Position numbers and translations under genes: made by a program
The notes under the pieces: model-generated
Databases searched by the model: none
What the model saw: the letters and a program-made list of their open reading frames with translations, nothing else
Told to the model about the DNA's origin: nothing
From: an uncultured bacterium
GTDB lineage: Bacteria > Omnitrophota > Omnitrophia > Omnitrophales > Aquincolibacteriaceae
Length of the DNA: 57,016 bases
Reading direction: 5' to 3'
NCBI GenBank assembly: GCA_964422635.1
Contig: CAYRBY010000003.1
Coordinates: forward strand, 1 to 57,016
Shown: piece after piece, positions 31,063 through 57,016 of the stretch
How positions within the stretch are numbered: position 1 is the stretch's first letter
How the letters are laid out: each line of letters opens with the position of its first letter

Positions 31063-32496
31063 ATGATTCGAATCCGATCGATTTCCGGATTTTTTTTCAT
31101 TTTCTTGTCAGGACTCATTCTGGCCGCGGCGCTGGCTTCCTCCGCTGCCGCATCACCTCTCCAGCCTTATCATCATGAAATCCTGATGTCCTCAGGGCTC
31201 CGGCTTGGGGCGCTCTGCCTGGGTTGCCTGCTGCCGCTTCTTTGTCGAGGGTTCTTTCTGAAAGTTTCCGTTTTTTTCTCTGAGAGGAAGAACAAAAATC
31301 TCATCCTGGCTGTGTCCGTAATAGGAATCGATTTTCTAGCTCGTTTAACAACACCGCAAATCGCATTTGGAAAAGGCTTGCTGGGGCTTGGCTATGGCCA
31401 CGACGGCACCGTATACGGCTGGATGACGGAACATTTCGCCTGGTTCAAGCACTCCGTTCAGCCCCCCTTCAACGGCCGCATCCTGATGCCCTGGCTTGTT
31501 CACGTTTCAGGTCTTTCAACCTTTTCAGGGTACGGTCTCTTCAACGGTCTTTTTTATTTTGCAAACGCATGGCTTGTCTTTCAACTGATGCGCTTTTATA
31601 AAGCAAGTGAAGGCGTCTGCTCCGCGGCTGTCATTTTGTTTTGCCTGGTTCGTTTCTATGAAAAATTTTCCGTCTATTACCCTGTTTTGACCGATATGGC
31701 CGGCGTGTTCTTTCTTCTTGCAGGTATTAACGCTGCTCTCCGGGGAAAACCATTTCTCTTCGCCCTCACTTTAACCCTGGGTGTTTTGTGCCGGGAAAAT
31801 ATTCTAGTGCTGATTCCTTTTTTCCTGATCTGCGTCTGCAAAGCAGACGCTTGCAAAATCACCCGGCTGAAAGCAGCAGGATTTACCCTGATTCCGTTGT
31901 TACTCTTTGGGGTTCTCCGGATGCACCCGGTTTTTCAACCGTCAGGATCCAGCTCCGAGACGGACCCCCTGTCCTTTCTTGCGGGTTATTTCCAGGAGCC
32001 CAGACGCTTCCTTGCCTTTGGGCTCGCACATGCAAATACGCTGGGCCTTATTTTCTTTTTGCCGCTTTTTCGATTCCGCCAAAGCCTGGAATTTTTGCGA
32101 AAACATCCTGAATGGCTTTATTATGGAACCGCCACGGTTTTTCTGTCCCTGGCTGGCGGCATGGATTATGACCGCTTTGCCGTGTGGCAGGCTCCTCTGG
32201 GCCTGGTCCTCATGGCTTCGATGGCACAGAGTTTTTCTTCAGTCTTTTGGGTCATGGCGGTTTGGATTCAGTTTTTGATAACGGAGCTCTGGAACCCTTG
32301 GTTCCCGGATGAAATGTTTTACCTTTCCCGGTACAGCTGGTTCCCTCACAGCCAAATGCTTGAAAGGATTTTCTCCTTGCCGCACTCTTTTGATTATCAG
32401 GCCGCAGCCGGTCTTTTTTTCCTTTTTGCGCTTGCCGCAAGCATCCTGCCGATGTGGACTGTTTTCCAATCTAAAAACGAAGGCAATGCGGGATGA
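31063..32496 (+). CDS. polytopic membrane protein, possible GT-C-type glycosyltransferase
   Basis: Many TM segments throughout. It lies in an operon with GT2, DegT and acetyltransferase genes. The family was not recognised from motifs. Confidence 0.45.
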   Translation: MIRIRSISGFFFIFLSGLILAAALASSAAASPLQPYHHEILMSSGLRLGALCLGCLLPLLCRGFFLKVSVFFSERKNKNLILAVSVIGIDFLARLTTPQIAFGKGLLGLGYGHDGTVYGWMTEHFAWFKHSVQPPFNGRILMPWLVHVSGLSTFSGYGLFNGLFYFANAWLVFQLMRFYKASEGVCSAAVILFCLVRFYEKFSVYYPVLTDMAGVFFLLAGINAALRGKPFLFALTLTLGVLCRENILVLIPFFLICVCKADACKITRLKAAGFTLIPLLLFGVLRMHPVFQPSGSSSETDPLSFLAGYFQEPRRFLAFGLAHANTLGLIFFLPLFRFRQSLEFLRKHPEWLYYGTATVFLSLAGGMDYDRFAVWQAPLGLVLMASMAQSFSSVFWVMAVWIQFLITELWNPWFPDEMFYLSRYSWFPHSQMLERIFSLPHSFDYQAAAGLFFLFALAASILPMWTVFQSKNEGNAG

Positions 32497-39134: not shown

Positions 39135-42100
39135 TTAAGCCGCGGCTGCGATACGCGCCTGAGCCGCAAGATAGGTCGAAACAGCCTGTACCACAGCCTG
39201 GAAATTCTGCGGGAAAAGGCTCCTGGGATTCAACACATGGAAATAATCCTCAGGCTGCTTTCCAAGCGCCATCGCCTGAAGAACCGTGATGACAGTTGAT
39301 GCAAAAAGCCCTGGATCCGACATCGCCGCCGGATCAAGGCTGAAAAGGTTCAAGCCCCTGCGCTTCGGGAAACTGCTAAAGACATCTTCTTCGCCAAGCA
39401 GCGCATGATGCTCAGCGGCTGCAAGTTTCGAATGCGGCACAGTCGCAAAAACAGATGCCCCCATTCCCCCTCTTACCTGAAGTTGTCCTCTTTTTAATTG
39501 AATCCCTTTTCCAGCGGCTAAACTCAAAATTTGTTTTTCGAATTTTCCAGCACCTTCCTCGTTCAGTGACGCCATATTCAAATGCAAAGCGCCGTTCACA
39601 GAAGCAACGACAGCGAGTACAGGAAGAAAACCAGCAAGATTTTCTGGCACTTTCGGCATTTGAACATGAACCACGGCCGAAAGCCCCGCAGCACCCTGAT
39701 CTTCGGGACTGCGCACAGGCAAACCTGAAATTTCTGACATCATTTTCTGAAGAGCCGGATCAGAAACCCCCGCCCGTTCAAAAAGTCCTGCATCATCCAT
39801 CACTTGCCGCTCCACCCATCTTTGAGCCGCTTGTTCCCGAGGAAGTTCGGCAGCCCCTTCTCGATCATCGTCTACAGCAACTTGCGCCGGCAGGCGGTCT
39901 GCAATTTGTTTAGAGGCATACACCCCTCCAAGGTCACGAGAAACATTGACCACAGAAGCCTGAACATCCGGCCCAAAAAGGCCGGGCGAGCGGAGCGCAA
40001 ACCGCGGGCTCACAGTTTCAGAAAGAGTCCGCTTCCATTCTTGAGTTGAAGAAATATCAGGGGTTGCGGCCAAGCGAAGCTCCGAACGCCCAACAAGCTC
40101 CTGTCTTTCCTTCAGTGTCCGGAACCTTTGAAAATCAGCACTTGCCACAATCTTGGCTTCGATTCGGTCCTGCAGCATGGTGGCTACAAGATTCATCTCA
40201 TCGAGCTCCGGCAGATCCCCTGCTTCCATCCGGTCGATCAGCATTTTCATAGATGCCGGTTTATAGCTGGTTCCCAGATCAAAAACGTGCTCAAGATCCT
40301 GACTATCTGTCATTCGAATCATTTCAAGCAGCTCAGGAATTTTATTGGTGGGTGCCACTAGCTGCATCTTACGGCCATGATAAATTTCAAGCGCCATCGC
40401 AGCAAAAAGCATACGGGCCGATCCGCCCCACTGACCTTCAACGGTTAGATGAAGTCCCAGTTCACGGGCTGAACCTTCAAGATCCGCTATCGCTTTCACA
40501 AGCCCCGGGTGGAGCTTGTTCATCTCATCGCTTCCTTCATCCCGGGATTCAAGCACAGACTTTTGAAGGTCATTGGTCCCGATTCCAAAAAAAGGCTTGG
40601 CCTCAGAATCCTGATGCTGTTCAAGTACGGCTTTCATAATATCCATTCGCTGCTCAACGGCCGAAACCTCTTCAAACATATAGCCAAACCGGATTTTGCT
40701 CAGCCTCTGCGTGATTTTATCTCCAAAATCAGAACCGGCCACCTTAGAGAAATCCGCGTCAGACTCCTTTCCGAACAGCTCTTCATGCGGCTTCATTTCA
40801 GCCTTGCTTAAAAGTTGCTTTCTGAACCAGTCCAACCCCTTTTCAAGCCCTTCCGCTTCCAGGGCATCGATGTCTGTGACCCACCCGTGTCGGCGCACAA
40901 CAGCGGCCTCGGTTTGGACAAGTGCTTCTTCTTCAAGTTCACGGATAAGTTCCTTCCGAGCCTCTTCAAAAAGCTTCTTCAGCGCCCCCACCTCTTCTAC
41001 TTTGAGCAGGTTCGGGAGCAAAATTTGGAGGTTGTCTTTCCGTGCACGGAGATAAGCACGGTAGATCGCCTTGATCTGCATTTTTCCAAACTCACGTTGA
41101 TTGCGGAACTCCCCGCGTTCATCCAGATAAAAACGGATATTGGAATGCGTTTTAAGAATGCTCTCAATCTGTTCTTCCGTTTTTCCCTGCACAAAAAACT
41201 TTGGGCGTTTATCTCCTTGAACGTCATAAAGGCGCACGGTCAACGGTGCTTCAGGATCAGAAAACGGCAGCAGCATTTCTTCGATGGCAAGGCTCAAGCG
41301 CATCTCGTCGAACTCAATACCCGCACGGTCCATTTCCCCCATCAATTGCTCCAGCCGGAGCAGGCCAATGCCGCGGGCCCCAAACTTTTGAAATCGCGGC
41401 TGATCGCCGTCGCGTTTCAGATAATCCAAACGCGATTCATCCGCCCAAAAATAAAAAGGCCGTCCATTAACAAGGGCCGGCAGCGACACTCGAGGAAGAA
41501 AATACGCATCCAGATACTTATAAACTTTGCCGCGCTCGATCATATCCCGCTGCGCTTCCGCGCTCGGGTTCACAACAGCAATTCCTTTCTTGCCGTCCAC
41601 GAGCACAAAATCACCTTCTTTAAGTTCCCTGAAATCCATTTTGCGGTCTTCAAAATCCAGAGCTTCAATGGGAACGATACCCTGATCTTTTGAAAAAATA
41701 AACCAGTGCGGAACACGCCCCGCCGCATCGTCCGGAGCAAAGCGTTTCAGCGTTGCGATGGAAACAACCTTTCCGCGTCCCTTATTTCTCATCATAAGCT
41801 CCGAAAAATCGGCTTCATGCCGGATCTTTTCGGCGAACACGATGAGATTCTTGTCGCCCCCGCGTTTCACGATGCCGTACTGGCTGACGTTGTAAAAACG
41901 CATGAGAAAATCGAGCTGCTCGTCGGGGAGATCGCGATACTGTTCTGATCCCTTCTGACTGAAAAATTTTGCAGTGCCATAATCCAGTGTCCGGCCGCGC
42001 TCCCTGATTTCATACATCACCTGGGTTCTGAATTCTGCAATAAATGTTCTCAGTCTTTCAGATGGGGCTGGGAAGAAGTTCAGGGTGTCTTTGTAAACAG

Positions 42101-45100
42101 CTTCAAACCTTTCAAGCTCAGCCTGCTTTTTGCGATCGCGCTCTGCCTGCAGGTCTGACGAGTCATAAATAAAATCATACGTATCAAACTCATCGCGTAT
42201 TCCTTCCAAAAGGGACCTTTGCTCTTCAAAAACCTTGATCAGTCTTGAGCCAACAAGGGTATCTCCGCCCCGTTTTCTGCTGTCTTCCACCATTTTCTTC
42301 AGACGATCCAAGCCGGGCTCGATTTTATTTTTGATAACCTGATTGATGGCGAATTGGGCGCGCTTTCCCTGCTCAACGATTTTCAGAATATCCGGAAGCA
42401 AATCGCTAATCAGCATGACGCGTCGGCCCGTCGCAATCTTCCGCTCCAAATCAATAAGCTGCTTGACCCTGTCCTTTTCGTCTTCGCCGTAATCCTCCGG
42501 TGAAATGTGCAGGCCATAAGGGAGCCTGAGAATGATTTCAAAAACTTTCACCAGAACTTGATCTCTCTCCCGGTTAATAAAAAGTTTTTTCCGCTCCTCT
42601 TCATCAAGACCGCTTTCGACATAAACAAGCTCTTCACGGTTTTCCAAGGCTGGAAGAAGTCTTTTGTCAACAATCCCAGAAGCCATGGTTAAATCCAGAT
42701 CATCCCCGGATTCTTCTTTGGCGGCAGCCAGCATCTCATCTTTCACGGTCCGCAGCGCTATCTCCGCCTTGATCTCCTGGGTCCTGATCAAGTCCATAGC
42801 CCGGCGGATCATAAGCTCTACAACATCCAGGGCTTGCGGGAGATACCCTTTCTCCTGAAGCTCACCCATGACCTGCATCCAAAGAGTGTCGAGGGTTTCA
42901 AGCTCATTGTGTATTTTTTGGACAACAACCTTGTCATCATCATAAGGTCTCTTCAGAGAAGTATTCATTTGCCGCTGGGAAGGACGCCAAAAAACCAATT
43001 CACCAGCCTCTACTTTCAGCATTTCCGGAGAAACGCCGTTAAGGCGGACATTCTGAGGGGACTTCGTTTCCTCCGATCGCAGCTCGGAGCGAACTGTATA
43101 GGCTTTTGAACTCTTTGTGGGATTCAACGGGATTTCAGGAAGGCCTTCCGCGCGGCGCGTAAACCGCAGCCCTGCAAAAAAGCTGTGCGGAACCTGCTTA
43201 CCATTAATCGTAATACCGTAAATTTCGTAATCCGGGCTGAGAGATTCAAAAAACGACTTTATATCGACCTTCTTCTGCTGTTCATCCTTAATGGACATGA
43301 TGTCCAGGTCCGTGATCAGTTCCCCGCCGACTTTAAGATGTCTCGAAAGCATGCCCACCGTGCCCGGAATGTTGCGCATATATTCCATGACGGCCTGCGT
43401 CATCACGATCACGTCAAAAGATTCGTTTTCAAAAGCTCCCAGGTTTTGCTCTAAATCCATAAGGGCAAATCTCTGCCGAACGCTGACCATAATCGTTCCG
43501 GCTTCACCCGTGTCGATGCCAAGAATCTGTGAAAGCCCCTCGTTTGAAAACAACAGGTCCTCAAACGCGCCGGAATAAATCTCTGCCTGATCGCCATACG
43601 TTCTTATCAGTTCGGCAGGAACCACGCCGCGGCCCACGCCAAGAAGGAGCACTCGAGGTTTCTGGCCGCTGGCAATACGATCCGTAATGGCCTTGGTCAC
43701 GCGGCCTCCATGCATTTCATCCAGAAAGGCAAAGTTGCGGATGACATTCTCTTCAAGGCCATATGGATTAGGCTGTTCTTCGGCCCGCAATTCAGAACGG
43801 CGCGAGTGATAAACGTTGGAATTGGCCGTAGCATCAAGAGGTATTTCATTGATCTGCTCGAAGGAACGCGTAAAGTGCAAACCCGCAAGAAGGCTCGTGG
43901 GGGCCTGTTTGCCTTCCAGCGTAATCCCGTAAATCTCATAATTGGGTCCAAGGGATTCAAAGAAACTTTTCACATCGACGCTTTTGCCTGTCACAGAATC
44001 CTTGATTGAGAAAATGTCGAAGTCCGTCATGAATTCGCCTTTCAAGGCGAGCTTGGCGGAAAGCCGGTCCACAAGCCGTGGCTTGTTCTCTATGTACTGC
44101 ATCACAGTCTGAGTGATGATAATGACGTCAAAGGACTGAGAATCAAAAGCTCCGAGATCCTTCTCTGCGTTCGAGATGACATAGCGGTCACGTATTGTTT
44201 TTATGATGGCCTCTGTTTCCGCCGCGCTTACCTTGCCCTCCCAGAACGATGCCAACTGTTCGGGTGAAAAAAGAAGATCCTCTTTGGCGGTTGAGTAAAG
44301 CTCAATTTTATCTCCGTATTCACGCAGCATGTCCGCAGGTGCCACGCCGCGTCCGATACCAATCAAGAGCACGCGGGGTTTATCCCCAGCAGCGATCCGG
44401 CGGTTAAGGGACGCCCGGATACGGCCTCCGTGCATTTCATCAACCTGAGCAAAACCACGCGTTACGTTTTCTTCGGATTTATAAGGATTGTCTTCTTCGG
44501 ATCTCAATTCCGAGCGGTTCCGGGGGCGAAGATTGTTGAGCGTATCTATCCGGTCAGTGAGATAAGCATAATCTGTTGTAAAGGCCGCTTCCGAGGGACG
44601 AATCACCCCAGCTCCAAGCTGAAGCAAAGAAAGGTATTGGGGAATCCTGTCATGCCAGTCGTTTTGTGCATTCGCGGCACGATTCGATAATGTCTTAAGA
44701 AGACTGGGGTCACGCGCAGCCGCATCAAAAGCAGCCGCGAGGGTTCCTCTGAGAGCCGCTCCGGTAAAATCGGTAAACAGAAAGCCGTTGCCATGGTCAG
44801 GGTGATCAAAGTAATTGATCAGCGTTGCGGCAATGCCTCCCACATTTCTTGCCACCACAGGCGTTCCTGAAGCCAATGATTCCAGTTGCGTAATACCGCC
44901 CGGCTCATAACGGGAAGGCATTAGAAAGAACCGGCTTGCCAGCATGACCTGCAGGGTTGTGGCGCCAGGGATAAAGGTATACTCACCGCGGATTCTGCCG
45001 GGGTATCTCCCCTCAAGTTCACGGGTCAAATCCCTCAGACGTTCTGCCGTCCCATCCCCCTCAGCAACAGGTCCACCCAGGAATATCTGCACTTCCGGGT

Positions 45101-48100
45101 TCATTTTGAGAAGACTTTCCAACACAGTCACTCCATCTTCCGTTTCCGTCAGGAGCTGGATTCCCTTCTGCTCCGCAACGCGTCCAATCATTGAGAGAAA
45201 AATCGCATTGGGGTTCTCGGTGAAACCAAAATCTTTTTGGGTTTTAACAAGTGCCGAATTTTTATAGTCCCAAAGGTTTTTGAGGAACTCTTCGTCTGAA
45301 TAGGCATCCATCAAGGGAGGCAATTCGAGCGCCTTACGGGCCTCTTCACCTTTTTTCCAGAACGTCTTTCTCGCCGAGGCTTCATCAATGCCGTTGCTGA
45401 TTCCAAACAAAATGTCTTTCAGCGGATTCAGGATATTATCAAGACCCTCCCCCGCCTCCCGCGTCAGCATTTGCTCGGCGTAGGGGCGGCTGACAGTAAG
45501 AATCGAACGGTTTACGTGTTCCATGGCGCTTGAAGTAATGTTGAGGAACCGGTCATCGTTGGGATCGGCAACATCTTTATAAAAATCGTGGTTGAGTCCC
45601 AGAAGCGGCCAAAGATCCAACCCATACTGATTCGTAAAGATTCGGCCCTGATAATCGCGTCCGTAATTGTGAATCATGTGAACCGTCCCCACATCCTTGA
45701 GCAGCGGATCTTGCGAGTATCGGGGGTCCCGCTGAAGAAATGTCGGAATTAAACCGGTAACCCAGTCATTGGAGATGATGAGCTGCGGATCGACACCGAG
45801 CGCCCTGTTTTGAACTACTTCAAGAGCGGCACGGGATAGGAAGACAGCGCGCCGTAATTCTTCCGAAGACGGCACTTTCGCATACAGTTTGTCGGCAAGC
45901 CGGGGATGTCTCAGAAAGAGGTATCGGACCCCTTCAGCTTTGGCCTCATACACACGGCTTTGGACCGTTCTTTGAAAGGTGCGGATTTTTTCATCCGTCA
46001 AGCCGGTCATGTGTGTACCCGAATCATACATCGGGCCAAATGTCATTCCGATCTCGGCGACAGGATCAGCTTTAATGGGCACCCTTTCACCGCTCTCGGT
46101 CATGAACCCCTTTTCAATCAAAGCAGACGCGGATTCATGTTTCTTGCCCTGATTATCTTCATACAGCGGCGTAATGACCGTAACGGATACGCCGCTCTCT
46201 GACAAAGCCTTGGCAAGGCCTTCTATAACTTTGGCCAGCCCTCCGGCAATCGCATGAGGACCTTCCGGAGCTACAAAAACAATTTCTCCAATACCGAGAG
46301 TTTCCAGGGCGTGCAAAGCGGGCAGCGCTCTTTCTTTGAAGAACGGATTCCACACTTTGCTGTCTTCCTTAAGACGGGTATGAATCTTTGAGAGCGCCTC
46401 GCGGAAACGGGGAACATCCTTAACTGCCTCGTAAACAATCTTTCCCATCCCTCGCATTTCCTCTTCGGTGACAAGGCGGTGAATCGTTGAGAGAAAACTA
46501 TCGTAGGGATTCGCATCAATAAGGCTCTGGCGGATTTCCTGAATGGCTTCCTGCTTTTTAAGATTACGCCGGAGGTCTTCAAGGACTGTTTTTGGCGGGA
46601 GATCGATCCTCATGACAGCATCATCACTCCGATTTTTTCCCTGCCACACCCGTTCACCTGTTTCGCGGTTTTGGGCATAGGCCGTCACGCCAAACTCACC
46701 GATCCGTCCGGGTTGAATCACTTTGCTTGCCTTGTAAATTCCTCCTCCGAGATCCTCAATGTCCCAATTAAGGATTTCGTGGTCCGTCCAATCCAACGGA
46801 CCTTGCGTATATTCTCCCCAATGAAAAAACATCTCTGATTTTTCAAGCGTTGCGGCGTCTGTCCTGAAAGTAATTTCAACCTTGGCGGAATCTCCGGACA
46901 CAGTCACAACAGGACGGGATGTAAATTGAATCGCTTCGGAATACGGTTTCTCGGACGAGCGCAGCTCTGAGCGTATTCCCATCTCTTTGTCAAAAACTTC
47001 AATGAGAATACGCCACCGCTCAAACTCACGGACCGAACTCTGTTTCAGACTCGTCCGGACCTCCTCTGCAAATCCCAGATCCACTTGCCGGAGAAGTTTC
47101 GTCATCGCCCCCTGAACATCAACATAGCTGCCCGTTTCAAAAGTGCGGAGCGCGTCATCAATATCAGACTGTACGGCCAATGCGTATCCGGGTGTATAGC
47201 TCAAGGTTTGGGCAGCCGGATCAAAGCGAATGTCGCCCGAATCATCTAAAGAAACAGCCTCTCTGAAAGTCGACAGAATCTCAGGGTCGCCAAGAACGTT
47301 TTGAAAAGTGTCCAGCAGCTCACTGTTTTCAGTTATCTCTGCCAAACCGGCCACTTTTGCCCGTTTCTCGGCCGGCAGCTTCCAGGTAAAGTCCCCCTCC
47401 GAGATCCGGCGGACAAGGAGCTTTAAAGTCTTAACATCTTCAGAGGTTTCGATATCCAATTTTCCAATCGCATTCAGAAACGCACGATCAAGACTCTCTG
47501 TCTCTGTGCTTGTTCTGAGCTCCGAACGCTGAGCTGGTTTCACGTTTGCAGAGCCGGCAAGGGCAAGACTGCTGTAGAATGTATCCCGGCTCTTTTCAAC
47601 AGCCTGAATGACATATTCATCTTTCGGATCCAGGTAGGCGGAACCTCTCAAATAACTGACAATAGAAGCATTCGCTTTCGTAAGGCTCAAAATCTCGGCG
47701 TCCGCAGGGCCGCGCAAATCAACATATACGGGCTTCATCCATTTTTTCAGCAAATCAATGGCTGAAAATTTCAAACCAACCTTTTGTCCTGGCCTTAACA
47801 CCTCTCTGAGCCTTGAACGAAACGGGAAAGAAACTCCGTTTTCCGTTTCCGGAGATTTCCTCCATGTTTCGGCAGGCTCAAGATCGCCCGTTCTTGAATC
47901 TTTAGAATAAAGCCAGGGTTCGGTGAGATAAGAATCTTCGTCGCCATAACCAAAAGTACCGCTGGGATTGTCATAAAGGAAATCAAAAAAGCCATTTTGA
48001 ACAAGCACTAAATTCGCCAGATCATAATCATAAGCCTCAATGGAAACATTCCAGCTCTCTGCCCAGACCTGAAAAGATCCAATTCCTTCTTTTGACAGAA

Positions 48101-51100
48101 TTTCCTGATGGTGCGATTCGTAATATTTTTTTAGCCCATAATAAACAATCATTCCGAGCGTATAAGGCTCTTCACCGCTTGAAACACCGATGCTTTTTAA
48201 GGTAACGGCTTTGTCCCCTGCCCGCATTTTCTCTTCAATGAGCTGGTCCAGAAACTTTATAGTTGCAATCTGATCAAATCGGAAAAAAGCGGTTGTTGCC
48301 CTTCCAAAATCAGCAGTTTTCGAAAAAGCCCGGAGGACGTCAGCTGCGAAGGCGCTGATTTCGGCAGGTTTAGCGGACAGATTTTCTTCCAGGTAGGCTC
48401 TGAAAGAGGATTGTCCGGAAGCCTGGATACGTGCCTGGATCATACCTTCAAAGAACTGTGCATACTCATAAGGAAGTTTATCCGCGCGGATTGCCTGAAA
48501 AACACTGGCGGCCTGCGCACTTTTCTCCGGCGAAAGCTTTTCATACACGAGCTTCAGAAATTGCTGTTTTAGCGCCGTCTCATCGAAAACCCCCGTCAGC
48601 AGAGTTTGGAGCTCGGACCGGAAAGAATCGGTCTCAACACTCCGGAGTTCCGAACGTGCCGCATAGGTAAGGAGAAGAATCTCTCGGGAACTGTCATAAA
48701 GTTTCCCGGAAAAGATTGCGCCTTCGATCCCCGGAGAAAGGATGGCCTCATGAAGTTCTGCATCTGTTATCTGATCAATAGAAGATACATGCAGGACTGC
48801 GATAACCGGTTGATCTGAAGCATCACGGCCTGCGATCACGGCATGCTGCATACCCTGATGCTCAAAGAAGCCACGGTACTGAAGGTCTGAAATACTAACG
48901 CCTGCGATTTGTGCGCTGCGGTTATCTTCCGCCAGACGGATAAGGTAGGCCGCAGATCCAAACGCTAATAAATTTTCGTACATGGCCCGGCGCCACAAAA
49001 GCTTGGCATCTGAAGATTCCGTTGTTCTCAAAACAACGTCTTCTCCCAGAACCGGCACGCCTGCAAGAATATGCCCGGAGGATATAACCAGCGGCGCAGA
49101 GAGTTTCAGCTGATAAGCAATCCCATGTTCGGATTTCACCATAAGCGGTGCCTGCGGCGAAGTGCTTTCATTTGTAATTCCGTAAAGAAAACTATCTGAG
49201 ACCTCAAGATTGAAAGCTCCACGCATGCCCGAAACAACGGAATTCTTAATAACACCTGTCGAACCGGGCAAAACTTCAGAAGCTGTAATGATGGAATTCT
49301 GGACCTCAACCTGCGTCCCGGGCAATGTTCCTGTAAATAGTTCCGGCACTCCCCAGAACTGCCGCGCCAAACGACCTTCGGCTGTATCCTGAAGAAGAAC
49401 AAGGATGTTCCGTCTGAAGATTCCTTCCGTCGTACCTTCCTCAATTCCTACATTCCCGAAATCCCACCAAAGAGACTTGGCTCCAGCATTAATGACCTTC
49501 ATGAAGGGCTGAGAAGAGTTTTTCCGTGAGCTCAGATAAAGGCTGAGTACGCGCTCCGTAAACTCCGGCTGATCAAGCCTTTCTTTCGCAAGAAATTTTT
49601 TCAAAGATTCTGCATTCTTGAATTGCGAAACATCAGCGGCAGCATTCTTAAGAACAAACTCCAAGCGAGTGAGAGGGATCCACCAATCCCCGTCGGTATC
49701 AGCCCGGTTCTTTGACTGTTCCAGGGGATTTTCCTCACTCAGCTCCTGCCGGTAAGAACGCATCATGCTGTCCCAGAAACGGCGGTCCACCGTAAAAGAT
49801 CCCAGGCTTTTGCCCATTCCGGAAACCTGGCTGTGCGCAGCTATGAACTCCTGGGCTTCCTGCACTGTTTTTGGTTTCTGCATGAGCCGTGCAGCCGTCC
49901 ACACCCCCGGCCCCTGCGCTTCAAGTGCAATCAACCCGTATTTATTGATAATGTCTTCGTACGGAAACTGCCCCACCAATGCCAAAATCTCGACAGGAGA
50001 ATCGCTCGGACTTTGAAGCTCCTGGAGCGGCACCGTCGGCACAAACACCTGATCTCCCCAAAACACCATGACGCGGCCAGGACGGTTCTTGGCAAAAATA
50101 GCGCTTTGAAAAATGGTCGACTCAAGAAGCGTCATCGGCACTTGACTTCCTTCTTTGTTCAGATAGCGGGGCATTGTGATACGGCTTTTAGAACCGTATT
50201 CGGAACCCGTAATCGGCCAAACACGGCTTCCAAAACCTGCCGTATGATAAATCGCGATGGTGGCTTCCCTTCCCTTTTCACGCCTAACTTTGTCCATCAG
50301 TGATTTCCAGCTGATCCCAGCCTGTTCTTTACTTTCCTGCCGGGCGCTTTGGTAGGCCAGAAGACTGCCCAGTCCGTTTCCGGGAGGAGAACCAGCACCG
50401 TAACTTTCCAGGACTGAAAACACCGTCGTATCTTTTCCGATAACCTGTCCGCGCATGCTTTCAAGTCTCTGCTTCCAATAACGCCGTTCGCTTTCCTGCG
50501 CCGAAACGACGATCACAATGTCGGGACCTTCGGAGTTTTCAACAGCGTTGTACATGGCCTGAATGTTTTGCTGTGCAAACGCCTGCTCCTCCAAACTCAG
50601 TCCGGCAGAGTCCGTGGCTCTCAGCTCTGAACGCGGCAACGCACCAGCTTGCGTTTGCTGAGGGACTTTTGCGCTGTCAGGAAGTGACACGGCCGAAGGC
50701 TTCCATTTAAACTCTGAAGAGGCGGAATCCGGCCGCCGGCCTTCCACCGCCCGGCTAAAACCAATATCTGACGAGGACAAAACCGCGCTGATGGTAGAGT
50801 TATTCGGAAGCAAGGCTTCAAGGTTCGGTTTTGCAGAAAATGTAAGAGCCGGCGATGAGGCGGTTTCAGGAACCTCGACATCCAAGACCTGGGATAACAC
50901 GGGATGGCTTTTAAACGCTGCTCTGACACCATTCAAAGAGTCGGAAGTCAGTCCCTTTTCCTTCATCCACAAAGGCAGTGCGACCTCGACAGCTTCTTTA
51001 AAAAGAAGCGCTTCCTGTTTGGTCAGAAAAGGGTTGGCATTTTTGAAATAGATTTTAAGGTCTGCGTTTTCTCCTCCCATGACCCGGGCATATCTTTCGC

Positions 51101-52957: not shown

Positions 52958-55900
52958 TTAAGCTTGGGTCGCCAGATGGTTGATCACCTGAATCATCCGG
53001 GAAACATTCTCAACAAGTTCATCCAGATTAATATCGAATTTTTTAAGAAGATCGTCCATTCGAACAACATCATATTGATCACTCAGCTGCCGCAAAAGCG
53101 CTGAGGCCACAAGAATAGCCGTATTTCGATCCAGGCGCTCGTTAAAAATTCTCTGCATACGCGGAATATAGCCGAGCTTGTCCAGCCAATCCATGCGTTC
53201 GCCTACAACAGCCGAATCCAGCTCCTTGTTTTCAGAGTAGAGCTGCTTCACGGCCCGGACGTAACTGGCAGGGCTTCCATCTGTAGATACGAACTTGAAT
53301 TGTTCGATCACCCTGGAAGCAGAAATCTTGAGCTCGTCCTGACGGGCAGCGACGCGTGAGGCCTGAGACCTGGCCTGCTGAGGCGAACCATTCACAAGAA
53401 AAGCAAAAAGGTTTCCTCTGTCTGCTGCCGCCAAAACAACAGCTACGCGGAAAAGTTCATCACTGGATTGATCCTGCTCTAAAGGCAGGACAATCTGGCC
53501 CGGAGTTTTTGCGTGATCCAGGAGCCAGCTATATTTTCCCAAAGCAGCGCGGGCCTCTTTGAGAACGACGGGTTCCTCTTCAGCAGTCTCTGGCGGAGAG
53601 GAAAGCCTCAGGCGAACGTATTCCAAAGAAGCAGGATCTTCCGAACGGATCAGTTCATCGGAGACAAACGCTGCAGCAACCGCTCCAGCCACCTGATCTT
53701 TAGGGATAAAATCAGGGTGATGTTCCAAGAATTGCCCCACATCAACCGACTCAGGAGCCGGAAGAGATAAGACTTTTGCGTGGAAATCTGCAGTCGTTGC
53801 CGGATTGACTCCATCGGCCTGAACAAGACTTTCAAAGACAGAACTTGTTTCTGCGAGCCGAAGCTCCGAACGGATCGAACCCAAAGGAGGTGTCCGGCGT
53901 CCGGGGCCGATAAGATTAATATTTAAATCTGCTGTCAGCTTGGGCGCCCGGGAATAGAGCGTGTTCCGGGTATCAATCAAGAGCTGCCCTGAAAATTTTG
54001 CATAATCCAGCTTTTTGTATTCATCCCAATCCGTAATCAGAAGGGCGGCATCTGCAGGCTTGCTGCCGGCAGGAGTTTCATAAGACAGAGCCTCTTCAGC
54101 TTGATTGACAAACACAACTCTGTTTGTCGCTTCATATCTTTCCTTGAAAAATATTTCACGGAAGTAAAACTCTTTGATAACCGAAAGATCCAGACGCTTA
54201 TCTCTGAGCAGATTTTGAAAAGATTGAATCAGGGGGCGGGTCAAAAACTGCGCACTCTGGTCATCCTCCCACGGATCCTTCGGGCTGCGCGCATCAAAAT
54301 AGTTTCCGTAGCTTTTCCGAAAAGCCTCTTCACTAAGAGTCAGTTTATGGTCCGCAACCATTCTTTCCCTTAATTGCCTTTGAAAAACCGGATTAAAACG
54401 AAGGCGGGCAAATAGCTGCCGCTGCGCCGATTGGTCCTCTAAAGCACCCGATTTCAGATAGCCATCAAAGGCCTTTTCAAAATCGCCGTCATACTTGAAG
54501 TGCTTATAAAGTTCGCCAAGATAATTTGAGATAATCGCCTCTTTGCGCGGCGCGTCGGGTGTTCTGAAAATAGGGTCATCAATTCTGACCTGCTGGACTT
54601 CAAGTTTTAGAAGTTCATAAAGTACATGCGCACTCGGCGCTTCTCTCATATCGTCTGTTTCAGCTTTAAAGGCCATTCCAAGAAGCGCGATCACCTTGCC
54701 CTGGAGAATCGCTTTGGTTCCAATCGCCTTGGCGCCGCGGAGCTGCTCAATAAGCCTCTTAACATCCGCTGTTTTAAAATATTGATTCAATTGGTCCGCA
54801 AGAACAATCATGAGAAGCGAACGGCCTGCTTGTTCGTCTGAAAGATAATTCACGGCGCGGACGTCCTTAGGGAAACAGGAACCGCCGTAACCGCAGCCCT
54901 CATTCAGGAAGGCGTTGCCGCCGACCCGTTGATCTTTCCGCAGGCGGGGAGCAATCTCACGGAAGTTCGAGCCCTCGATTTCAAGAGCAGCATCCTGCGC
55001 CATCACATTTGCAGTTGTAATGGAAACAGCCAGAAAAGCGTTCGCAGCGTACTTGATCAATGTGGATGTGGCAGTATCAGTCAACAGAACCGTGTGCGGG
55101 GTGCGCAGCATGAGCGGGTACCAAAGCTCCAACAGGTCTTTCTCGACCCGTTTCCGGGCCTCCGGAGGCATAGACGAATAAAAGCCCAAAACGGTCCGGT
55201 CAAGATCGGTCGTAATATCTTTAATGGCCTGACCTTCTCTTAAAAATTCAGGGTTACTGACGAACCCGTAGTCAATCCCGGGCTTAAGCCCAAACTCTTG
55301 CTCCAGGATTTTAACAGCATCTTCAAAAACCCTCGGCGTAACCGTCGATTTAATTACGATTGTCTTGAAGGCCGCTTCCCTTCCGGACTCAGCGGCCTGC
55401 CGCTTGATAATCGCCGCGATATCACGCATGGCTCCGTTAATATAAGAGGGGTCTTGGGCACCGTTGTCTTGCTGGGGTGTCCCGACGGCCAGATAAACGA
55501 TGCTCGCTTCGCGAACACCTTTTTCGTATTCTTCAGGCGATGCCTGAAACCGAATCCTTCCTGACTCCTTACCTTTGATAATCAGATCGCGCAATCCGGG
55601 CTCATGAATAGGGACTTCCGTCGCTTGCGAGTTAAGCGCATCCATGGCCCGCTTTCTCTGCGGAATGTCCAAAACAGTGACATCATTTCCAAGATCCGCA
55701 AGATTCGCGCCCGTAGTCAGACCCACATAGCCTCCGCCGATCACAGCAACCCTTTTCTGAGTGACTGGAACAGCCTTCGCCTCACGCTGATCCAGTTCAG
55801 GCGTTCCAAAGATGTCTTCCAGTTTCTTCTTGCGCGCGTCATCGGTTTCCAAAGATAAAAGATATGCCTCATATTCTCCAATGGCTTTTGCCGCAAGCTG

Positions 55901-57016
55901 CGGACTCCCTCGCTCATAATCATCCGCAATCACATGACTGTCGGCTAACGTATAATCGGCCTGCCCGTCCAGAACGGGCCGGCCGACACTGACGTAATGG
56001 ATACCGGCGGTTTTCAAACTTTCAAGCGTGTAAAGAGTTTCACCGTTGGCACGAAGCCCAAAAAGGTTAATCCCATCAAACAGATACTTTGCTCCGAGAC
56101 TCTGTTTAAGCTTGGGCAAATCGAGTTTCTTTAAATCCGTATTGGCGTCGGTAGGAATGACTACAAAATCCGCACTGGCTGAGGCCGTGTAAATATCAAG
56201 ATCGGGTGTCCCCTCGTCGACTCCATAAAAACGAACTCGACGGTCTTTGAGAATTTTGGCCATAGAATCATGCTCATTAGCCTTAATTCTATCGAGCCAC
56301 TCTTTTAACGATTGGCGGGCAAGCGGATCAGCGACATAAAACTCTGTAACACCTGAGGAAACCAGCTGGCGGATAATACGCTTGGCCGGCGATTTGGTCA
56401 CCCGGGTGTCCCCTTCGCGATACCCCACACCAATGAGCGCTGCCTTGCGCCCTTTCAGGTCTCCGACATAGGCGGATATTTTGTCTGAAAAATCCTGCAG
56501 ATTGCGCTTATTGATATCGGTAATTGTTTCCAACTCAAAAAGAAAGTGAAGAATAGGCGGGAGTTTATCAAGAATGTCTTTAACGGTTAGATCGCTTTCG
56601 GGATCCTCGGCGATTTCCCGGAGCATGGCAACGCTGTCAGAAAGCCGCCGCTCAATAATTTCAAGTTTCTTTTGCTTCGTGTCCTGCTTTTCGCGTTCCG
56701 TGAAAAAGTCAGGCCGGGCTTCAAGAGAAGCAAGAACCTCTTCCAGGCGCTCCTCCCTGACCCATTCCAAAAATTGAGCGAGACGTCCGCCAAACCCCAA
56801 AGAAGGATTCGTGAAAAGTTTCCGGATGCGTTTGTCTAGCCCCGCGCCGTAAGCCACAGCACTGAGATCTGCGCCATAGCGCTCAGATACTTTGGCCAAA
56901 TCATTAAAGTGCGCGAGTTTTGCAGCCAGATAGAGAAACAAATCATTCTTGGTCTGCTCCGCGCTCGGAGCACTCATAAAGTCAGGGTTGTCAAAATTAG
57001 CCCTGAGCATTTGGAG
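52958..57016 (-). CDS. large modular protein (at least 1,350 aa, 5-prime end outside the window): tandem UDP-glucose-dehydrogenase-like modules, RSELR, shared tail
   Basis: The frame is open to the window edge (codons LQ precede the first Met at 57010). The first residues already lie in the middle of a UDPGDH-type central domain, so the true start must be upstream of the window. Confidence 0.85.
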   Translation of the reverse strand, partial: LQMLRANFDNPDFMSAPSAEQTKNDLFLYLAAKLAHFNDLAKVSERYGADLSAVAYGAGLDKRIRKLFTNPSLGFGGRLAQFLEWVREERLEEVLASLEARPDFFTEREKQDTKQKKLEIIERRLSDSVAMLREIAEDPESDLTVKDILDKLPPILHFLFELETITDINKRNLQDFSDKISAYVGDLKGRKAALIGVGYREGDTRVTKSPAKRIIRQLVSSGVTEFYVADPLARQSLKEWLDRIKANEHDSMAKILKDRRVRFYGVDEGTPDLDIYTASASADFVVIPTDANTDLKKLDLPKLKQSLGAKYLFDGINLFGLRANGETLYTLESLKTAGIHYVSVGRPVLDGQADYTLADSHVIADDYERGSPQLAAKAIGEYEAYLLSLETDDARKKKLEDIFGTPELDQREAKAVPVTQKRVAVIGGGYVGLTTGANLADLGNDVTVLDIPQRKRAMDALNSQATEVPIHEPGLRDLIIKGKESGRIRFQASPEEYEKGVREASIVYLAVGTPQQDNGAQDPSYINGAMRDIAAIIKRQAAESGREAAFKTIVIKSTVTPRVFEDAVKILEQEFGLKPGIDYGFVSNPEFLREGQAIKDITTDLDRTVLGFYSSMPPEARKRVEKDLLELWYPLMLRTPHTVLLTDTATSTLIKYAANAFLAVSITTANVMAQDAALEIEGSNFREIAPRLRKDQRVGGNAFLNEGCGYGGSCFPKDVRAVNYLSDEQAGRSLLMIVLADQLNQYFKTADVKRLIEQLRGAKAIGTKAILQGKVIALLGMAFKAETDDMREAPSAHVLYELLKLEVQQVRIDDPIFRTPDAPRKEAIISNYLGELYKHFKYDGDFEKAFDGYLKSGALEDQSAQRQLFARLRFNPVFQRQLRERMVADHKLTLSEEAFRKSYGNYFDARSPKDPWEDDQSAQFLTRPLIQSFQNLLRDKRLDLSVIKEFYFREIFFKERYEATNRVVFVNQAEEALSYETPAGSKPADAALLITDWDEYKKLDYAKFSGQLLIDTRNTLYSRAPKLTADLNINLIGPGRRTPPLGSIRSELRLAETSSVFESLVQADGVNPATTADFHAKVLSLPAPESVDVGQFLEHHPDFIPKDQVAGAVAAAFVSDELIRSEDPASLEYVRLRLSSPPETAEEEPVVLKEARAALGKYSWLLDHAKTPGQIVLPLEQDQSSDELFRVAVVLAAADRGNLFAFLVNGSPQQARSQASRVAARQDELKISASRVIEQFKFVSTDGSPASYVRAVKQLYSENKELDSAVVGERMDWLDKLGYIPRMQRIFNERLDRNTAILVASALLRQLSDQYDVVRMDDLLKKFDINLDELVENVSRMIQVINHLATQA
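52961..53857 (-). other. C-terminal tail domain shared by the three large proteins (aa 1052-1350)
   Basis: Starts RSELR-LAETSS, compare RSELR-LAATPD in the 4,555-aa protein. Ends ...ILVASALLRQLSDQYDVVRMDDLLKKFDINLDELVENVSRMIQVINHLATQA. Confidence 0.5.
53858..53872 (-). other. RSELR junction motif (1,350-aa protein, aa 1047-1051)
   Basis: Coding strand cgt tcg gag ctt cgg. Context LGSI-RSELR-LAETSS. Confidence 0.95.
53873..55756 (-). other. complete UDP-glucose/GDP-mannose dehydrogenase-like module with a large insertion (aa 419-1046)
   Basis: Rossmann motif VAVIGGGYVGLTTGANLADLGNDVTVLDI. Catalytic Cys motif GYGGSCFPKDV. C-terminal domain VIALLGMAFKAETDDMREAPS. An insertion of roughly 170 aa lies between DDPIF and VVFVNQAEEAL. 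Confidence 0.75.
55976..57016 (-). other. partial, apparently degenerate UDPGDH-like module (aa 1 to ~345; boundaries approximate)
   Basis: Central-domain-like LYLAAKLAHFNDLAKVSERYGADLSAVAYGAGLDKRI. The catalytic position reads GFGGRLAQF where GGSCFPKD is expected. The C-terminal domain is AALIGVGYREGDTRVTKSPAKRI...YVADP. Confidence 0.5.

What the first reader, a model, noticed from the sequence alone, without database searches (positions are those of the whole stretch)
39138..40073. A related 300-350-aa C-terminal tail closes all three large proteins
**Seen directly.** After their last RSELR, each protein ends in a tail of 354, 312 or 299 aa (nt 10798-11859, 39138-40073 and 52961-53857). The final ~70 aa share a pattern:
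- ALSVESLRKQLKDEPGSLFPELTADVLQAIFGLLEDLMTTEAARQAVASAA
- AMALGKQPEDYFHVLNPRSLFPQNFQAVVQAVSTYLAAQARIAAAA
- ASALLRQLSDQYDVVRMDDLLKKFDINLDELVENVSRMIQVINHLATQA

Two of the tails begin RSELR-LA(A/E)T.

**Inference.**
- A common C-terminal domain on proteins with different cargo suggests a shared targeting, secretion-signal, assembly or anchoring function.
- C-terminal recognition domains of secretion substrates are the obvious analogy.
- No matching secretion machinery is visible in this window.
Basis: partly seen in the sequence, partly recalled or inferred. Interest (0 to 1): 0.65.

Follow-up and report, generated by a model that had tools for sequence, protein, structure and literature searches.

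The report
C-terminal cap of giant modular proteins
Each of the three giant proteins ends in a closing domain of about 300 residues, but only two of the three tails are demonstrably related; that domain is the constant end-piece of an apparently undescribed family of signal-peptide-bearing, bead-on-a-string multi-enzyme proteins seen so far only in the uncultivated phylum Omnitrophota, and its function is still unknown.

Summary
The coordinates and quoted sequences are correct. Tail C (52961-53857) is a clear member of a conserved domain family. A profile of it found 36 protein clusters, and every match lies at the extreme C-terminus of proteins up to 5132 aa. Tail B (39138-40073) is a distant, degenerate member (hhalign E 3e-6, score 47; best of 100 shuffles 20). 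Tail A (10798-11859) shows no detectable similarity to B or C. It belongs to a second tail family (E about 1e-14 to the tail of L014).

All three tails share position (directly after the last RSELR), size, and a C-terminal Ala.

AlphaFold gives a confident model for the C-type tail: a helical lead-in followed by a five-strand Rossmann-like core. It has no significant PDB, Pfam or NCBIfam relative and no conserved acidic, His, Ser or Cys residue.

The tails always accompany an N-terminal signal peptide, a roughly 600-aa N-terminal cap, and enzyme modules separated by R-S-E-[LVMI]-R. Tail type tracks the N-cap phylogeny.

The secretion-signal analogy is not supported. A non-catalytic assembly or processing cap of a possible polyprotein is the best reading. 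Function remains inferred.

The parts
39138..40073 (-). Tail B: the 312 aa after the last RSELR of protein B. A divergent member of the C-type tail family.
   Evidence: Translation, motif positions. hhalign against the 33-sequence C-type profile gives Prob 88%, E 3.2e-6, score 47, against a shuffle maximum of 20. It matches only 19 of 60 consensus columns, where other members match 30-51.
39147..39554 (-). The part of tail B that hhalign realigns with confidence: residues 179-314 of the 317-aa query. It corresponds to the second half of the Rossmann-like core plus the two terminal helices.
   Evidence: realigned MAC alignment. The terminal-63-column profile scores 22.2 against a shuffle maximum of 14.7.
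40074..40088 (-). Last RSELR of protein B, the boundary between the PEP-utilizer module and the tail.
   Evidence: Codons differ between motif copies, so conservation is at peptide level.
52961..53857 (-). Tail C: 299 aa, a typical member of the C-type tail family, ending HLATQA.
   Evidence: 52% and 38% identity over about 305 aa to the tails of P0004 and P0003. The profile search gave 36 hits, all C-terminal.
52961..53572 (-). High-confidence core of tail C, model residues 101-304. It comprises a helix carrying the A-R-E-A-L-G-x-Y-A-W-L-L-D motif, a five-strand beta/alpha Rossmann-like sandwich, and two terminal helices.
   Evidence: AlphaFold2 with a 32-sequence alignment gives mean pLDDT 86.8 and pTM 0.70. 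Most 10-residue blocks from 101 to 304 are above 90 (lowest 85-88).
53858..53872 (-). Last RSELR of protein C. It lies in a disordered linker (model residues 1-9, pLDDT below 50).
10798..11859 (-). Tail A: 354 aa, same position and same terminal -AA, but a second sequence family (A-type).
   Evidence: No signal against the C-type profile. E 3e-14 to 1e-14 over 292 aa to the 299-aa tail of L014.
11860..11874 (-). Last RSELR of protein A.
39135..52802 (-). Giant protein B (4555 aa): signal peptide, N-cap, seven cargo modules, tail. It holds eight RSELR boundaries.
   Evidence: GT5/GT1, methyltransferases, PEP-utilizer.
10795..19854 (-). Giant protein A (3019 aa): signal peptide, N-cap, five cargo modules, tail. 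It holds six RSELR boundaries.
52958..57016 (-). Giant protein C, a C-terminal fragment of at least 1352 aa: a UDP-glucose dehydrogenase module followed by the tail. It lies directly upstream of B.
   Evidence: 71% identical to P0007/L033a, which is 2271 aa long and carries the N-cap.
50634..52802 (-). N-terminal cap of B: a signal-peptide-like leader plus a roughly 600-aa domain with invariant Q-D-x-H, E, E, N, Y, R and G-G-F-H.
17476..19854 (-). N-terminal cap of A, 32% identical to that of B.

Best explanation
The tail is the constant C-terminal cap of a modular giant-protein family seen here only in Omnitrophota. The family architecture is: Sec-type signal peptide, then a conserved N-terminal cap of about 600 aa, then a variable string of complete enzyme modules each preceded by R-S-E-[LVMI]-R, then a final R-S-E-x-R, then a closing domain of about 300 aa ending in -[AS]-Ala.

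Shown:
- Tails B and C belong to one such closing-domain family, with a helical lead-in and a five-strand Rossmann-like alpha/beta core.
- Tail A belongs to a second family in the same position.
- Tail type follows the phylogeny of the N-cap, so the two ends of the protein have co-diverged rather than been swapped.
- The C-type tail has no conserved acidic, His, Ser or Cys residue. The N-cap, by contrast, has ten invariant polar residues.

Inferred:
- The tail is a non-catalytic terminal module for docking, oligomerisation or recognition. It would work together with the catalytic-looking N-cap in the maturation or assembly of the whole chain.
- That maturation is most plausibly processing at the RSExR linkers, after which the tail would be released as its own ~300-aa protein.
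- The tail is not a C-terminal secretion signal.
For: Position and universality:
- All 36 hits of the C-type profile are C-terminal.
- Tail length after the last motif clusters at 280-325 aa in most complete family members that keep a strict last motif. This holds across different tail types, with outliers of about 220-370 aa.
- Most ORFs complete at the C-terminus end in Ala, including all eight tails first compared that are not C-type: wA, L014, L007, L012, L021, L032, P0005 and P0006. A few do not (see evidence against).

Homology: C and B; A with L014.

Structure: pLDDT 86.8, with the RSELR in a disordered linker and the last helix packed into the fold.

Non-catalytic character: columns conserved at 70% or more are L, G, P and A plus Y235, R241 and R261. 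The N-cap has invariant Q, D, H, Q, E, E, N, Y, R and H.

Co-divergence: the N-cap neighbour-joining tree places every C-type tail, including wB, in one large clade. wA, L014 and L042a form a separate clade.

Linker and processing idea:
- RSELR occurs 76 times against 0.42 expected, and there are 175 R[SAT]E[LIVMT]R sites with unconserved flanks.
- Codons for the motif are synonymous but different between copies.
- All six comparable motifs are identical between orthologues 66-71% identical overall, while the flanks vary and carry indels.
- Module content between the wB and L033b orthologues changes six residues after an RSELR.

The tail evolves faster than the cargo: 36% (helical part) and 61% (core) identity against 85% for the UDP-glucose dehydrogenase core.

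Signal peptides.
Against: - No experiment or proteomic datum shows cleavage at RSExR, so processing is pure inference.
- The protease assignment of the N-cap rests on a motif pattern recalled from memory plus two non-significant Foldseek hits (ChaN 2g5g at E 0.27, 3b55 at E 0.41). Pfam, NCBIfam and PDB sequence searches found nothing.
- Y235, R241 and R261 are conserved and could form a ligand site, so a binding or enzymatic role is not excluded.
- A few complete ORFs break the terminal-Ala rule. L039 and L040 end in -SV, L046 in -IL, and L001a and P0002 appear interrupted.
- Common ancestry of A-type and C-type tails is not demonstrated.
- Exported enzymes that need NAD, UDP-sugars, SAM or PEP are hard to rationalise.
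- No interaction between the N-cap and the C-cap was tested.
Confidence: 0.5

Rival explanations
1. One reading: the tail is a C-terminal targeting or secretion-recognition domain read by a dedicated export or anchoring machinery.
For: It is a conserved terminal domain on proteins with different cargo. The extreme C-terminus is the best conserved stretch of the C-type family, and the final Ala is invariant in 31 of 31 sequences. The proteins are evidently destined for export.
Against: - N-terminal Sec-type signal peptides already account for export.
- The 300-aa Rossmann-like fold, with its terminal helix packed into the domain, resembles no known C-terminal secretion signal.
- Pfam and NCBIfam give no hits.
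- No T1SS or T9SS genes, sortase or exosortase genes, or other conserved neighbours were found.
- The tails fall into several sequence families that are not detectably related to one another. That is unexpected for a signal read by a single machine.
Confidence: 0.1
2. The tail is a ligand-binding or enzymatic Rossmann-like domain, for example a nucleotide or sugar-phosphate binder. It would supply one common biochemical or regulatory activity to every chain.
For: The model has a Rossmann-like five-strand alpha/beta core. The weak Foldseek neighbours are nucleotide or sugar-nucleotide binders: GT-B C-domains, the G6PDH NAD domain, HAD-like proteins and cytidylyltransferases. G234-Y235, R241 and R261 are conserved. 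The cargo is largely sugar-nucleotide metabolism.
Against: - No Foldseek match reaches E<=1e-3, and TM-scores normalised to the query are at most 0.33.
- No glycine-rich loop is apparent after strand 1 on inspection of the alignment, and no conserved Asp, Glu, His, Ser or Cys is present.
- Tail B has lost most hallmark residues yet is retained.
- The tail evolves faster than the enzyme modules.
Confidence: 0.15
3. The tail is chiefly a C-terminal recognition handle for proteolysis or quality control. The invariant small C-terminus (-[AS]-Ala) would be read by a C-terminus-specific protease or unfoldase, such as a Prc/Ctp-type tail-specific protease or ClpXP acting on an ssrA-like -AA end. That enzyme would then process or remove the chain.
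For: A terminal Ala is found across otherwise unrelated tail families. Genes ending in -AA are degron-like according to established knowledge of ssrA/ClpXP and Tsp specificity; this is from memory and was not tested here.
Against: - The terminal residues sit at the end of a well-packed helix (pLDDT about 97, falling to about 88 in the last few residues). They are not on a free, flexible tail.
- -TQA, the commonest ending, is not a classical ClpX motif.
- No such protease gene is linked to the family.
- A full 300-aa conserved domain is not needed for a three-residue degron.
Confidence: 0.1
4. There is no common function. The tails are simply the last module inherited by descent in each paralogue lineage. 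The resemblance among the three window proteins would then reflect gene duplication plus chance.
For: Tail A is not detectably related to B or C. There are several tail families. Tail type follows the protein phylogeny, as simple vertical inheritance predicts.
Against: - The closing module is never lost or internalised while cargo modules come and go.
- Most complete members have a closing module of about 220-370 aa, commonly 280-325 aa.
- The terminal Ala is shared by tail families that are otherwise unrelatable.
- Tail C's family is conserved across at least 36 clusters defined at 50% identity.
Confidence: 0.15

Closest known systems
MARTX (multifunctional autoprocessing RTX) toxins
   Same: Both are giant bacterial proteins with conserved N- and C-terminal regions. 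In both, these regions flank a variable, lineage-specific string of independently folding cargo domains, with defined inter-domain sites at which MARTX cargo is released. This is the closest analogue in logic. The MARTX properties are from my own knowledge.
   Different: - No homology: Pfam finds no RTX or glycine-rich repeats and no Peptidase_C80 CPD.
- Export here is implied by an N-terminal Sec-type signal, not by a C-terminal T1SS signal.
- The delimiter is a fixed pentapeptide, R-S-E-[LVMI]-R.
- The cargo is sugar-nucleotide, glycan, methyltransferase and PEP enzymes, not toxins.
- Processing is unproven.
Viral polyproteins, with a protease encoded in the chain and conserved short cleavage motifs between mature proteins
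   Same: A short, strictly conserved peptide motif sits at every module boundary in an otherwise unconserved, disordered linker. One end of the chain carries a domain with an enzyme-like set of invariant polar residues.
   Different: This is a cellular, chromosomal gene family, flanked by ClpB, SurE, Sua5 and similar genes. No recognisable protease family was found. Cleavage has not been shown.
Omnitrophota giant proteins ('Archaeovorins' and Dockerin-type) described by West-Roberts et al., bioRxiv 10.1101/2023.11.21.568195
   Same: Same phylum. GT5 glycogen-synthase-like and GT1 domains sit inside very long ORFs. [quoted passage not shown]
   Different: - Those proteins exceed 30,000 aa.
- As far as the passages returned by the keyword look-up show, they have transmembrane anchors, C39 and subtilisin peptidase domains and SecA-like domains.
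- The text look-ups found no RSExR motif, N-cap or C-terminal cap in that paper or in the 2026 complete-genome preprint.
- Homology between the two sets was not tested here.
C-terminal sorting and secretion domains: T9SS CTD, T1SS C-terminal signal, LPXTG, PEP-CTERM
   Same: They lie at the extreme C-terminus and are shared by proteins with different passenger domains.
   Different: As recalled, not tested against models here, those signals are small: an ~80-aa beta-sandwich, an unstructured ~60-aa segment, or a motif followed by a transmembrane helix. The tail is a ~300-aa alpha/beta domain without a hydrophobic anchor and gives no family hit.
ChaN / TIKI / TraB-PrgY-GumN / erythromycin-esterase superfamily (this comparison concerns the N-cap, not the tail)
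   Same: The invariant residue pattern is ...Q-D-A-H..., E-G...F-Y-x-x-A-x-x-R-D..., G-G-F-H-x-x-G, on a split alpha/beta core. Two superfamily members appear among the top eight Foldseek hits: ChaN 2g5g and 3b55.
   Different: Both hits are non-significant (E 0.27 and 0.41, TM-scores at most 0.25). The core carries a ~340-aa helical insertion. No Pfam, NCBIfam or PDB sequence match was found. This remains a lead, not a membership.

Membership tests
C-type tail family (unnamed; defined here by alignments A2 and A5) | Significant match to the family profile over the whole ~300-aa domain. | tested here: met
   Tail C: hmmsearch E 4e-96 and 52% identity to P0004. Tail B: hhalign E 3.2e-6, Prob 88%, 280 columns, shuffle maximum 20. 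Plain HMMER misses tail B, so its membership is profile-profile only.
C-type tail family: tail A | Significant match to the family profile. | tested here: not met
   hhalign scores of 16.0-20.9 fall inside the shuffle range (best shuffle 25.3). The A-type profile against the C-type profile gives Prob 0.4%. The global-mode alignment is out of register.
C-type tail family | Located at the extreme C-terminus, directly after the last R-S-E-x-R, and ending in Ala. | tested here: met
   True of tails A, B and C and of all 36 database hits. A304 is invariant.
C-type tail family | Hallmark motifs: A-R-E-A-L-G-x-Y-A-W-L-L-D, F-L-E-x-L-G-Y, A-x-L-L-R-x-Q, H-x-A-T-Q-A. | tested here: inconclusive
   Tail C has them all. 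Tail B keeps only 19 of 60 consensus columns and has lost most motifs.
Known C-terminal secretion or sorting signals (T9SS CTD, T1SS signal, LPXTG, PEP-CTERM) | A match to curated models; a small beta-sandwich or unstructured signal, or a motif followed by a C-terminal transmembrane helix; linked export genes. | tested here: not met
   No Pfam or NCBIfam hit. The AlphaFold2 model is a 300-aa alpha/beta domain. There is no C-terminal hydrophobic segment in the sequences. No linked export genes were found.
MARTX toxins | N- and C-terminal glycine-rich RTX-type repeats, a Peptidase_C80 autoprocessing domain, and T1SS export. | tested here: not met
   Pfam on the three whole proteins shows only metabolic-enzyme domains. 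An N-terminal Sec-type leader is present instead.
Classical nucleotide-binding Rossmann domains | A glycine-rich phosphate-binding loop after strand 1, a conserved acidic residue after strand 2, and close structural neighbours. | tested here: not met
   No such loop or conserved acidic residue appears among the columns conserved at 70% or more. The best Foldseek E-value is 2.4e-3 and TM-scores normalised to the query are at most 0.33.
ChaN/TIKI/TraB/EreA superfamily (N-cap only) | An alpha/beta core carrying the paired His motifs plus conserved Glu and Arg, with family-model or structural matches. | tested here: inconclusive
   The invariant H, E, R and GGFH pattern is present. Foldseek hits to 2g5g and 3b55 are non-significant. 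No Pfam, NCBIfam or PDB sequence hit was found. The defining motif list comes from memory.
Proteolytically processed polyprotein | Demonstrated cleavage at the conserved inter-module motif. | not testable with these tools
   Only indirect evidence is available: motif enrichment, conservation and a disordered context.

The most novel reading that the evidence does not exclude
These genes encode true bacterial polyproteins. After Sec export, the N-terminal cap, a divergent TIKI/TraB/ChaN-like hydrolase, or a partner protease, cuts at every R-S-E-[LVMI]-R. This would release a stoichiometric set of sugar-nucleotide, glycan, methyltransferase and PEP enzymes outside the cytoplasm, or into a host or prey cell. 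The C-terminal cap would be the obligatory last product, docking to the N-cap to license or terminate processing. This would be a mode of gene organisation and enzyme delivery not described for cellular organisms. It would also supply the missing 'cleavage points' for Omnitrophota giant proteins.
Probability: 0.2. Interest if true: 0.85.

Novelty: categorically new. Interest (0 to 1): 0.6.

Why it matters
Omnitrophota are ubiquitous, uncultivated nanobacteria that are suspected parasites or predators. Their giant genes are a recognised puzzle.

This work shows that a subset of these genes follows a strict grammar: signal peptide, N-cap, enzyme modules delimited by RSExR, then C-cap. Both caps have no detectable relative in Pfam, NCBIfam or the PDB, and they co-evolve. 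That turns a vague 'long ORF' into a testable object:
- The motif predicts exact processing sites.
- The caps define two new domain families that can be used to find every member.
- The presence of complete cofactor-dependent metabolic enzymes behind a secretion signal raises the question of where they act: periplasm, cell surface or host.

For this finding specifically, the tail is not a secretion tag. It is a conserved, probably non-catalytic terminal domain whose role in assembly or processing can now be tested directly.

Tried and rejected
- Direct homologue searches with tail B alone, and with the last 600 aa of B, returned nothing. The word prefilter probably failed. The 66%-identical orthologue seen in L033 (5925 aa) was not retrieved, and its tail lies beyond the 10-kb flank, so I could not obtain a B-type partner sequence.
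- Protein B is not in the gene-position collection.
- A metagenome scan with the A-type tail alignment found no relatives. The N-cap alignment A6 was too diverse to seed a scan. The second scan, with A1, gave 13 loci.
- Pfam, NCBIfam and PDB sequence searches on the tails and the N-cap gave only noise.
- Foldseek against the PDB and BFVD gave only generic Rossmann-like neighbours for the tail model, and nothing significant against the PDB for the N-cap model.
- Attempts to link A-type and the other tail types to the C-type all stayed within shuffle ranges. These were single sequences, group profiles, a profile restricted to the terminal 63 columns, the enlarged profile including wB, and global mode.
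- L042a against the A-type profile is marginal (24.8 against a shuffle maximum of 24.9).
- Stand-alone tail genes: P0019 is a contig-edge fragment and P0025 sits on a 1-kb contig, so neither is informative.
- A conserved partner gene next to the giant genes was not found.
- Literature: RSELR as a whole word occurs only in alginate-lyase (PL7) papers. There is no Omnitrophota polyprotein literature.
- I considered a Ser-His-Asp hydrolase reading of the tail. I rejected it because none of those residues is conserved at 70% or more.
- A structure prediction for tail A was not possible with an alignment, because its only homologue comes from a locus and was not admissible (one search shows the rule). 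I used the second structure job for the N-cap instead.
Full report
OBSERVATION

The window carries three very long minus-strand ORFs. A is 10795-19854 (3019 aa). B is 39135-52802 (4555 aa). C is 52958-57016, at least 1352 aa, with its N-terminus off the window.

RSELR occurs 6, 8 and 1 times in A, B and C. It occurs only once elsewhere in all six frames. The motif is encoded by differing synonymous codons, so it is conserved at the peptide level.

WHAT THE PROTEINS ARE

Pfam finds complete enzyme domains between the motifs. These are GT5/GT1 glycogen-synthase-like, PEP-utilizer and several methyltransferases in B; a methyltransferase in A; and UDP-glucose dehydrogenase in C. The surrounding genes are ordinary chromosomal genes: ClpB, SurE, Sua5, OtsA, an amylase, and a glycan cluster with an ABC transporter.

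A and B begin with a signal-peptide-like leader and a homologous domain of roughly 600 aa, 32% identical between them. A profile of that 'N-cap' found six proteins. A genome scan then found 32 loci whose named records are all Candidatus Omnitrophota/Omnitrophica MAGs, the rest being labelled only 'uncultured bacterium'. A metagenome scan added 13 more loci.

In these relatives the same grammar recurs: N-cap, then modules separated by R-[SAT]-E-[LIVMT]-R. In a 146-kaa family set, RSELR occurs 76 times against 0.42 expected. RSEVR occurs 33 times, RSEMR 20 and RSEIR 11. The flanks are unconserved apart from small residues before the motif and Ser/Ala/Thr then acidic residues after it.

ARE THE THREE TAILS RELATED?

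Pairwise, hardly. With homologues the answer becomes clear.

Tail C is 52% and 38% identical over about 305 aa to the C-terminal tails of P0004 and P0003. Both of those start at the last [RK][SE]ELR and end HLATQA. A HMMER search of 1.84 billion cluster representatives with this three-sequence profile gave 36 hits, 18 of them below 1e-10. Every hit lay at the extreme C-terminus of proteins up to 5132 aa. The full-length hits carry the N-cap and RSExR motifs, and their tails after the last motif are mostly 279-325 aa.

Tail B scores 47.0 against a 33-sequence profile of this family (Prob 88%, E 3.2e-6, 280 collinear columns). One hundred shuffles reach at most 20.1, and the reversed sequence scores 15.7. 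B is therefore a distant member. It is degenerate, keeping only 19 of 60 consensus columns.

Tail A scores 20.9, within its shuffle range (maximum 25.3). It stays negative in every variant tried: group profiles, a terminal-helix-only profile, an enlarged profile, and global mode. Tail A is instead homologous to the 299-aa tail of L014 (E 3e-14 to 1e-14 over 292 aa).

Further tail types exist: L021/L032, L036/L038, L031up/L035up, L007, L012, P0005 and P0006.

Across all types, tail length and the ending are shared. Most complete members end in -[AS/Q]-Ala, including all eight non-C-type tails first compared. The final Ala is the only invariant column of the C-type family.

STRUCTURE

AlphaFold2 on tail C with a 32-sequence alignment gives mean pLDDT 86.8 and pTM 0.70.
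- Residues 1-9, which include RSELR, are disordered.
- Residues 12-100 are helical with moderate confidence.
- Residues 101-304 are mostly above 90.

The high-confidence part consists of a helix carrying the AREALG-YAWLLD motif, five beta-alpha units in a Rossmann-like arrangement, and two terminal helices, the last of which is packed into the fold.

Foldseek finds no PDB or viral match with E<=1e-3. The best neighbours are generic Rossmann-like domains with TM-scores, normalised to the query, of at most 0.33. PDB sequence search, Pfam and NCBIfam are all negative.

Columns conserved at 70% or more are Leu, Gly, Pro and Ala plus Y235, R241 and R261. No acidic, His, Ser or Cys residue is conserved. 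This argues against an enzyme.

The N-cap is different. It has invariant Q, D, H, Q, E, E, N, Y, R and H residues. Its model is confident (pLDDT 87.8, pTM 0.83) and shows a split alpha/beta core with a ~340-aa helical insertion. Its only suggestive structural neighbours are ChaN (2g5g, E 0.27) and the erythromycin-esterase-like 3b55 (E 0.41). That fits my recollection of the His...Glu...Arg...GxxH signature of the ChaN/TIKI/TraB/EreA superfamily. It is a lead, not a demonstration.

EVOLUTION

A neighbour-joining tree of the N-caps puts every protein with a C-type tail, including B, in one large clade. A groups with L014 and L042a, and L021/L012/L032/L007 form a third clade. So the two caps co-diverge and tails are not swapped. 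The window holds paralogues from two deep clades.

Some non-C-type tails (L036/L038, P0005) nest inside the C-type clade. This shows that tails can diverge beyond recognition. A common origin for all tails is therefore plausible but unproven.

Against orthologues 66-71% identical (L033, from the contig of P0007):
- All six comparable RSELR motifs are identical, while their flanks vary and carry indels.
- B and its orthologue are collinear until six residues after the fifth RSELR, and then carry different modules.
- The tail is less conserved (36% in the helical part, 61% in the core) than the UDP-glucose dehydrogenase core (85%).

Giant genes are often tandem: C then B in the window, and likewise in L002, L004, L031, L033, L034, L035 and L042. 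No other neighbour is conserved.

INTERPRETATION

Shown. The tail is a real, conserved, always-terminal domain of a modular protein family seen here only in Omnitrophota. B and C share it. A has a different family in the same slot.

Inferred. Four observations point the same way. The tail lacks catalytic-type conservation. It co-evolves with an enzyme-like N-cap. It follows a disordered, strictly conserved pentapeptide. It is never lost while cargo changes. The most economical model is therefore a non-catalytic cap that functions with the N-cap in maturation or assembly of the chain. The most plausible form of that maturation is processing at RSExR, which would liberate the tail as a separate ~300-aa protein.

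The secretion-signal analogy is disfavoured for three reasons. Classical N-terminal signal peptides are present in 24 of 26 full-length members. The fold and size do not fit known signals. No export genes are linked. Rival readings (ligand-binding Rossmann domain, C-terminal degron or protease handle, no common function) are not excluded and are scored separately.

COMPARISON WITH WHAT IS KNOWN, AND NOVELTY

The closest analogues in logic are MARTX toxins and viral polyproteins. None of their defining features (RTX repeats, CPD, T1SS, a known protease family) is present.

West-Roberts et al. (bioRxiv 10.1101/2023.11.21.568195) describe far larger Omnitrophota proteins containing GT5 and GT1 domains. 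They suspect cleavage but note the lack of known cleavage points. Keyword look-ups in that paper and in a 2026 complete-genome preprint turned up no mention of an inter-module motif, linker or polyprotein. RSELR as a word appears only in alginate-lyase papers. Source annotations for the family members looked up are only 'hypothetical protein'.

Within the libraries I could search, the tail family and the architecture it closes are undescribed.

VERDICT

- Interest is moderate to high. This rests mainly on what the tail reveals about the whole architecture. The tail's own function remains unknown.

Noticed in passing
window 10795-19854, 39135-52802 and 52958-57016 (minus strand); motif copies start at nt 53872, 50633, 48656, 47528, 46973, 44516, 43799, 43091, 40088, 17475, 16839, 15285, 14280, 13473 and 11874: R-S-E-L-R marks every module boundary. 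It is family-wide as R-[SAT]-E-[LIVMT]-R: 76 RSELR against 0.42 expected. Codons differ between copies, the flanks are unconserved, and the motif sits in a disordered linker. It is identical in orthologues 66-71% identical overall while the flanks carry indels. It looks like a processing or recognition site.
   Followed up: partly
window 50634-52802 and 17476-19854 (minus strand): This is the N-terminal cap. It has a Sec-type signal-peptide-like leader followed by a roughly 600-aa domain with no Pfam, NCBIfam or PDB match. Invariant residues are Q-D-x-H, E, E, N, Y, R and G-G-F-H. The AlphaFold2 model is confident (pLDDT 87.8), with a split alpha/beta core and a ~340-aa helical insert. Weak Foldseek hits to ChaN (2g5g) and EreA-like 3b55 hint at a TIKI/TraB/ChaN-type hydrolase.
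   Followed up: partly
window 52803-52957 (gap between C and B); also L002, L004, L031, L033, L034, L035 and L042: Giant genes of this family commonly sit in tandem on the same strand. C ends 155 nt before B starts. The same C-then-B order is kept in the related contig L033, where the B orthologue is 5925 aa.
   Followed up: partly
window 43092-44516 (minus strand; B residues 2763-3001 and 3002-3237): Two adjacent modules of B are tandem duplicates of one methyltransferase-like unit, each starting RSELR-[SA]-E-E. In the L033 orthologue the collinear alignment with B ends six residues after the RSELR that precedes them, so its downstream module content differs. Modules are therefore gained and lost at motif boundaries.
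   Followed up: partly
P0004 (1274 aa) against P0007 (2271 aa); L033:466-7389: These two close relatives share the N-cap, the first ~200 residues after it, and the tail. They differ by about 1000 aa containing the whole UDP-glucose dehydrogenase region. The cargo is dispensable or variable while the caps are kept.
   Followed up: no
all complete family ORFs (window A, B and C; L002, L007, L012, L014, L021, L032, L035, L036, L038, L042, L045; P0003-P0037): The proteins end in Ala, usually -AA, -SA or -QA, even where the tails are otherwise unrelatable. The exceptions (L039 and L040 ending -SV, L046 ending -IL, and L001a and P0002, which appear interrupted) lack the strict N-cap motifs and/or RSExR boundaries, or are probably broken genes. 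A C-terminal -AA is degron-like in bacteria. The meaning here is unknown.
   Followed up: partly
window 9216-10421 (minus strand): A 401-aa ORF lies directly downstream of giant gene A. It has a multi-pass hydrophobic N-terminal half and a charged, coiled-coil-like C-terminal half. It has no Pfam hit and no homologue in the fetched loci.
   Followed up: partly
window 30001-34000 (plus-strand ORFs 31063-32496 and 32493-34160): There is a strong negative AT skew here (-0.26 and -0.22), unlike the rest of the window. It coincides with two ORFs of 477 and 555 aa that have no Pfam hit. They lie downstream of an ABC ATPase and an ABC_tran_2 gene, and upstream of hexapeptide-transferase, GT2 and DegT genes.
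   Followed up: no
window 26255-26791 (minus strand): This is a bactofilin domain fused to a C-terminal HTH_17 DNA-binding domain, an unusual combination.
   Followed up: no
window 52444 (plus strand): The only RSELR outside the three giant ORFs lies in an antisense frame inside gene B. It is probably a chance occurrence.
   Followed up: no
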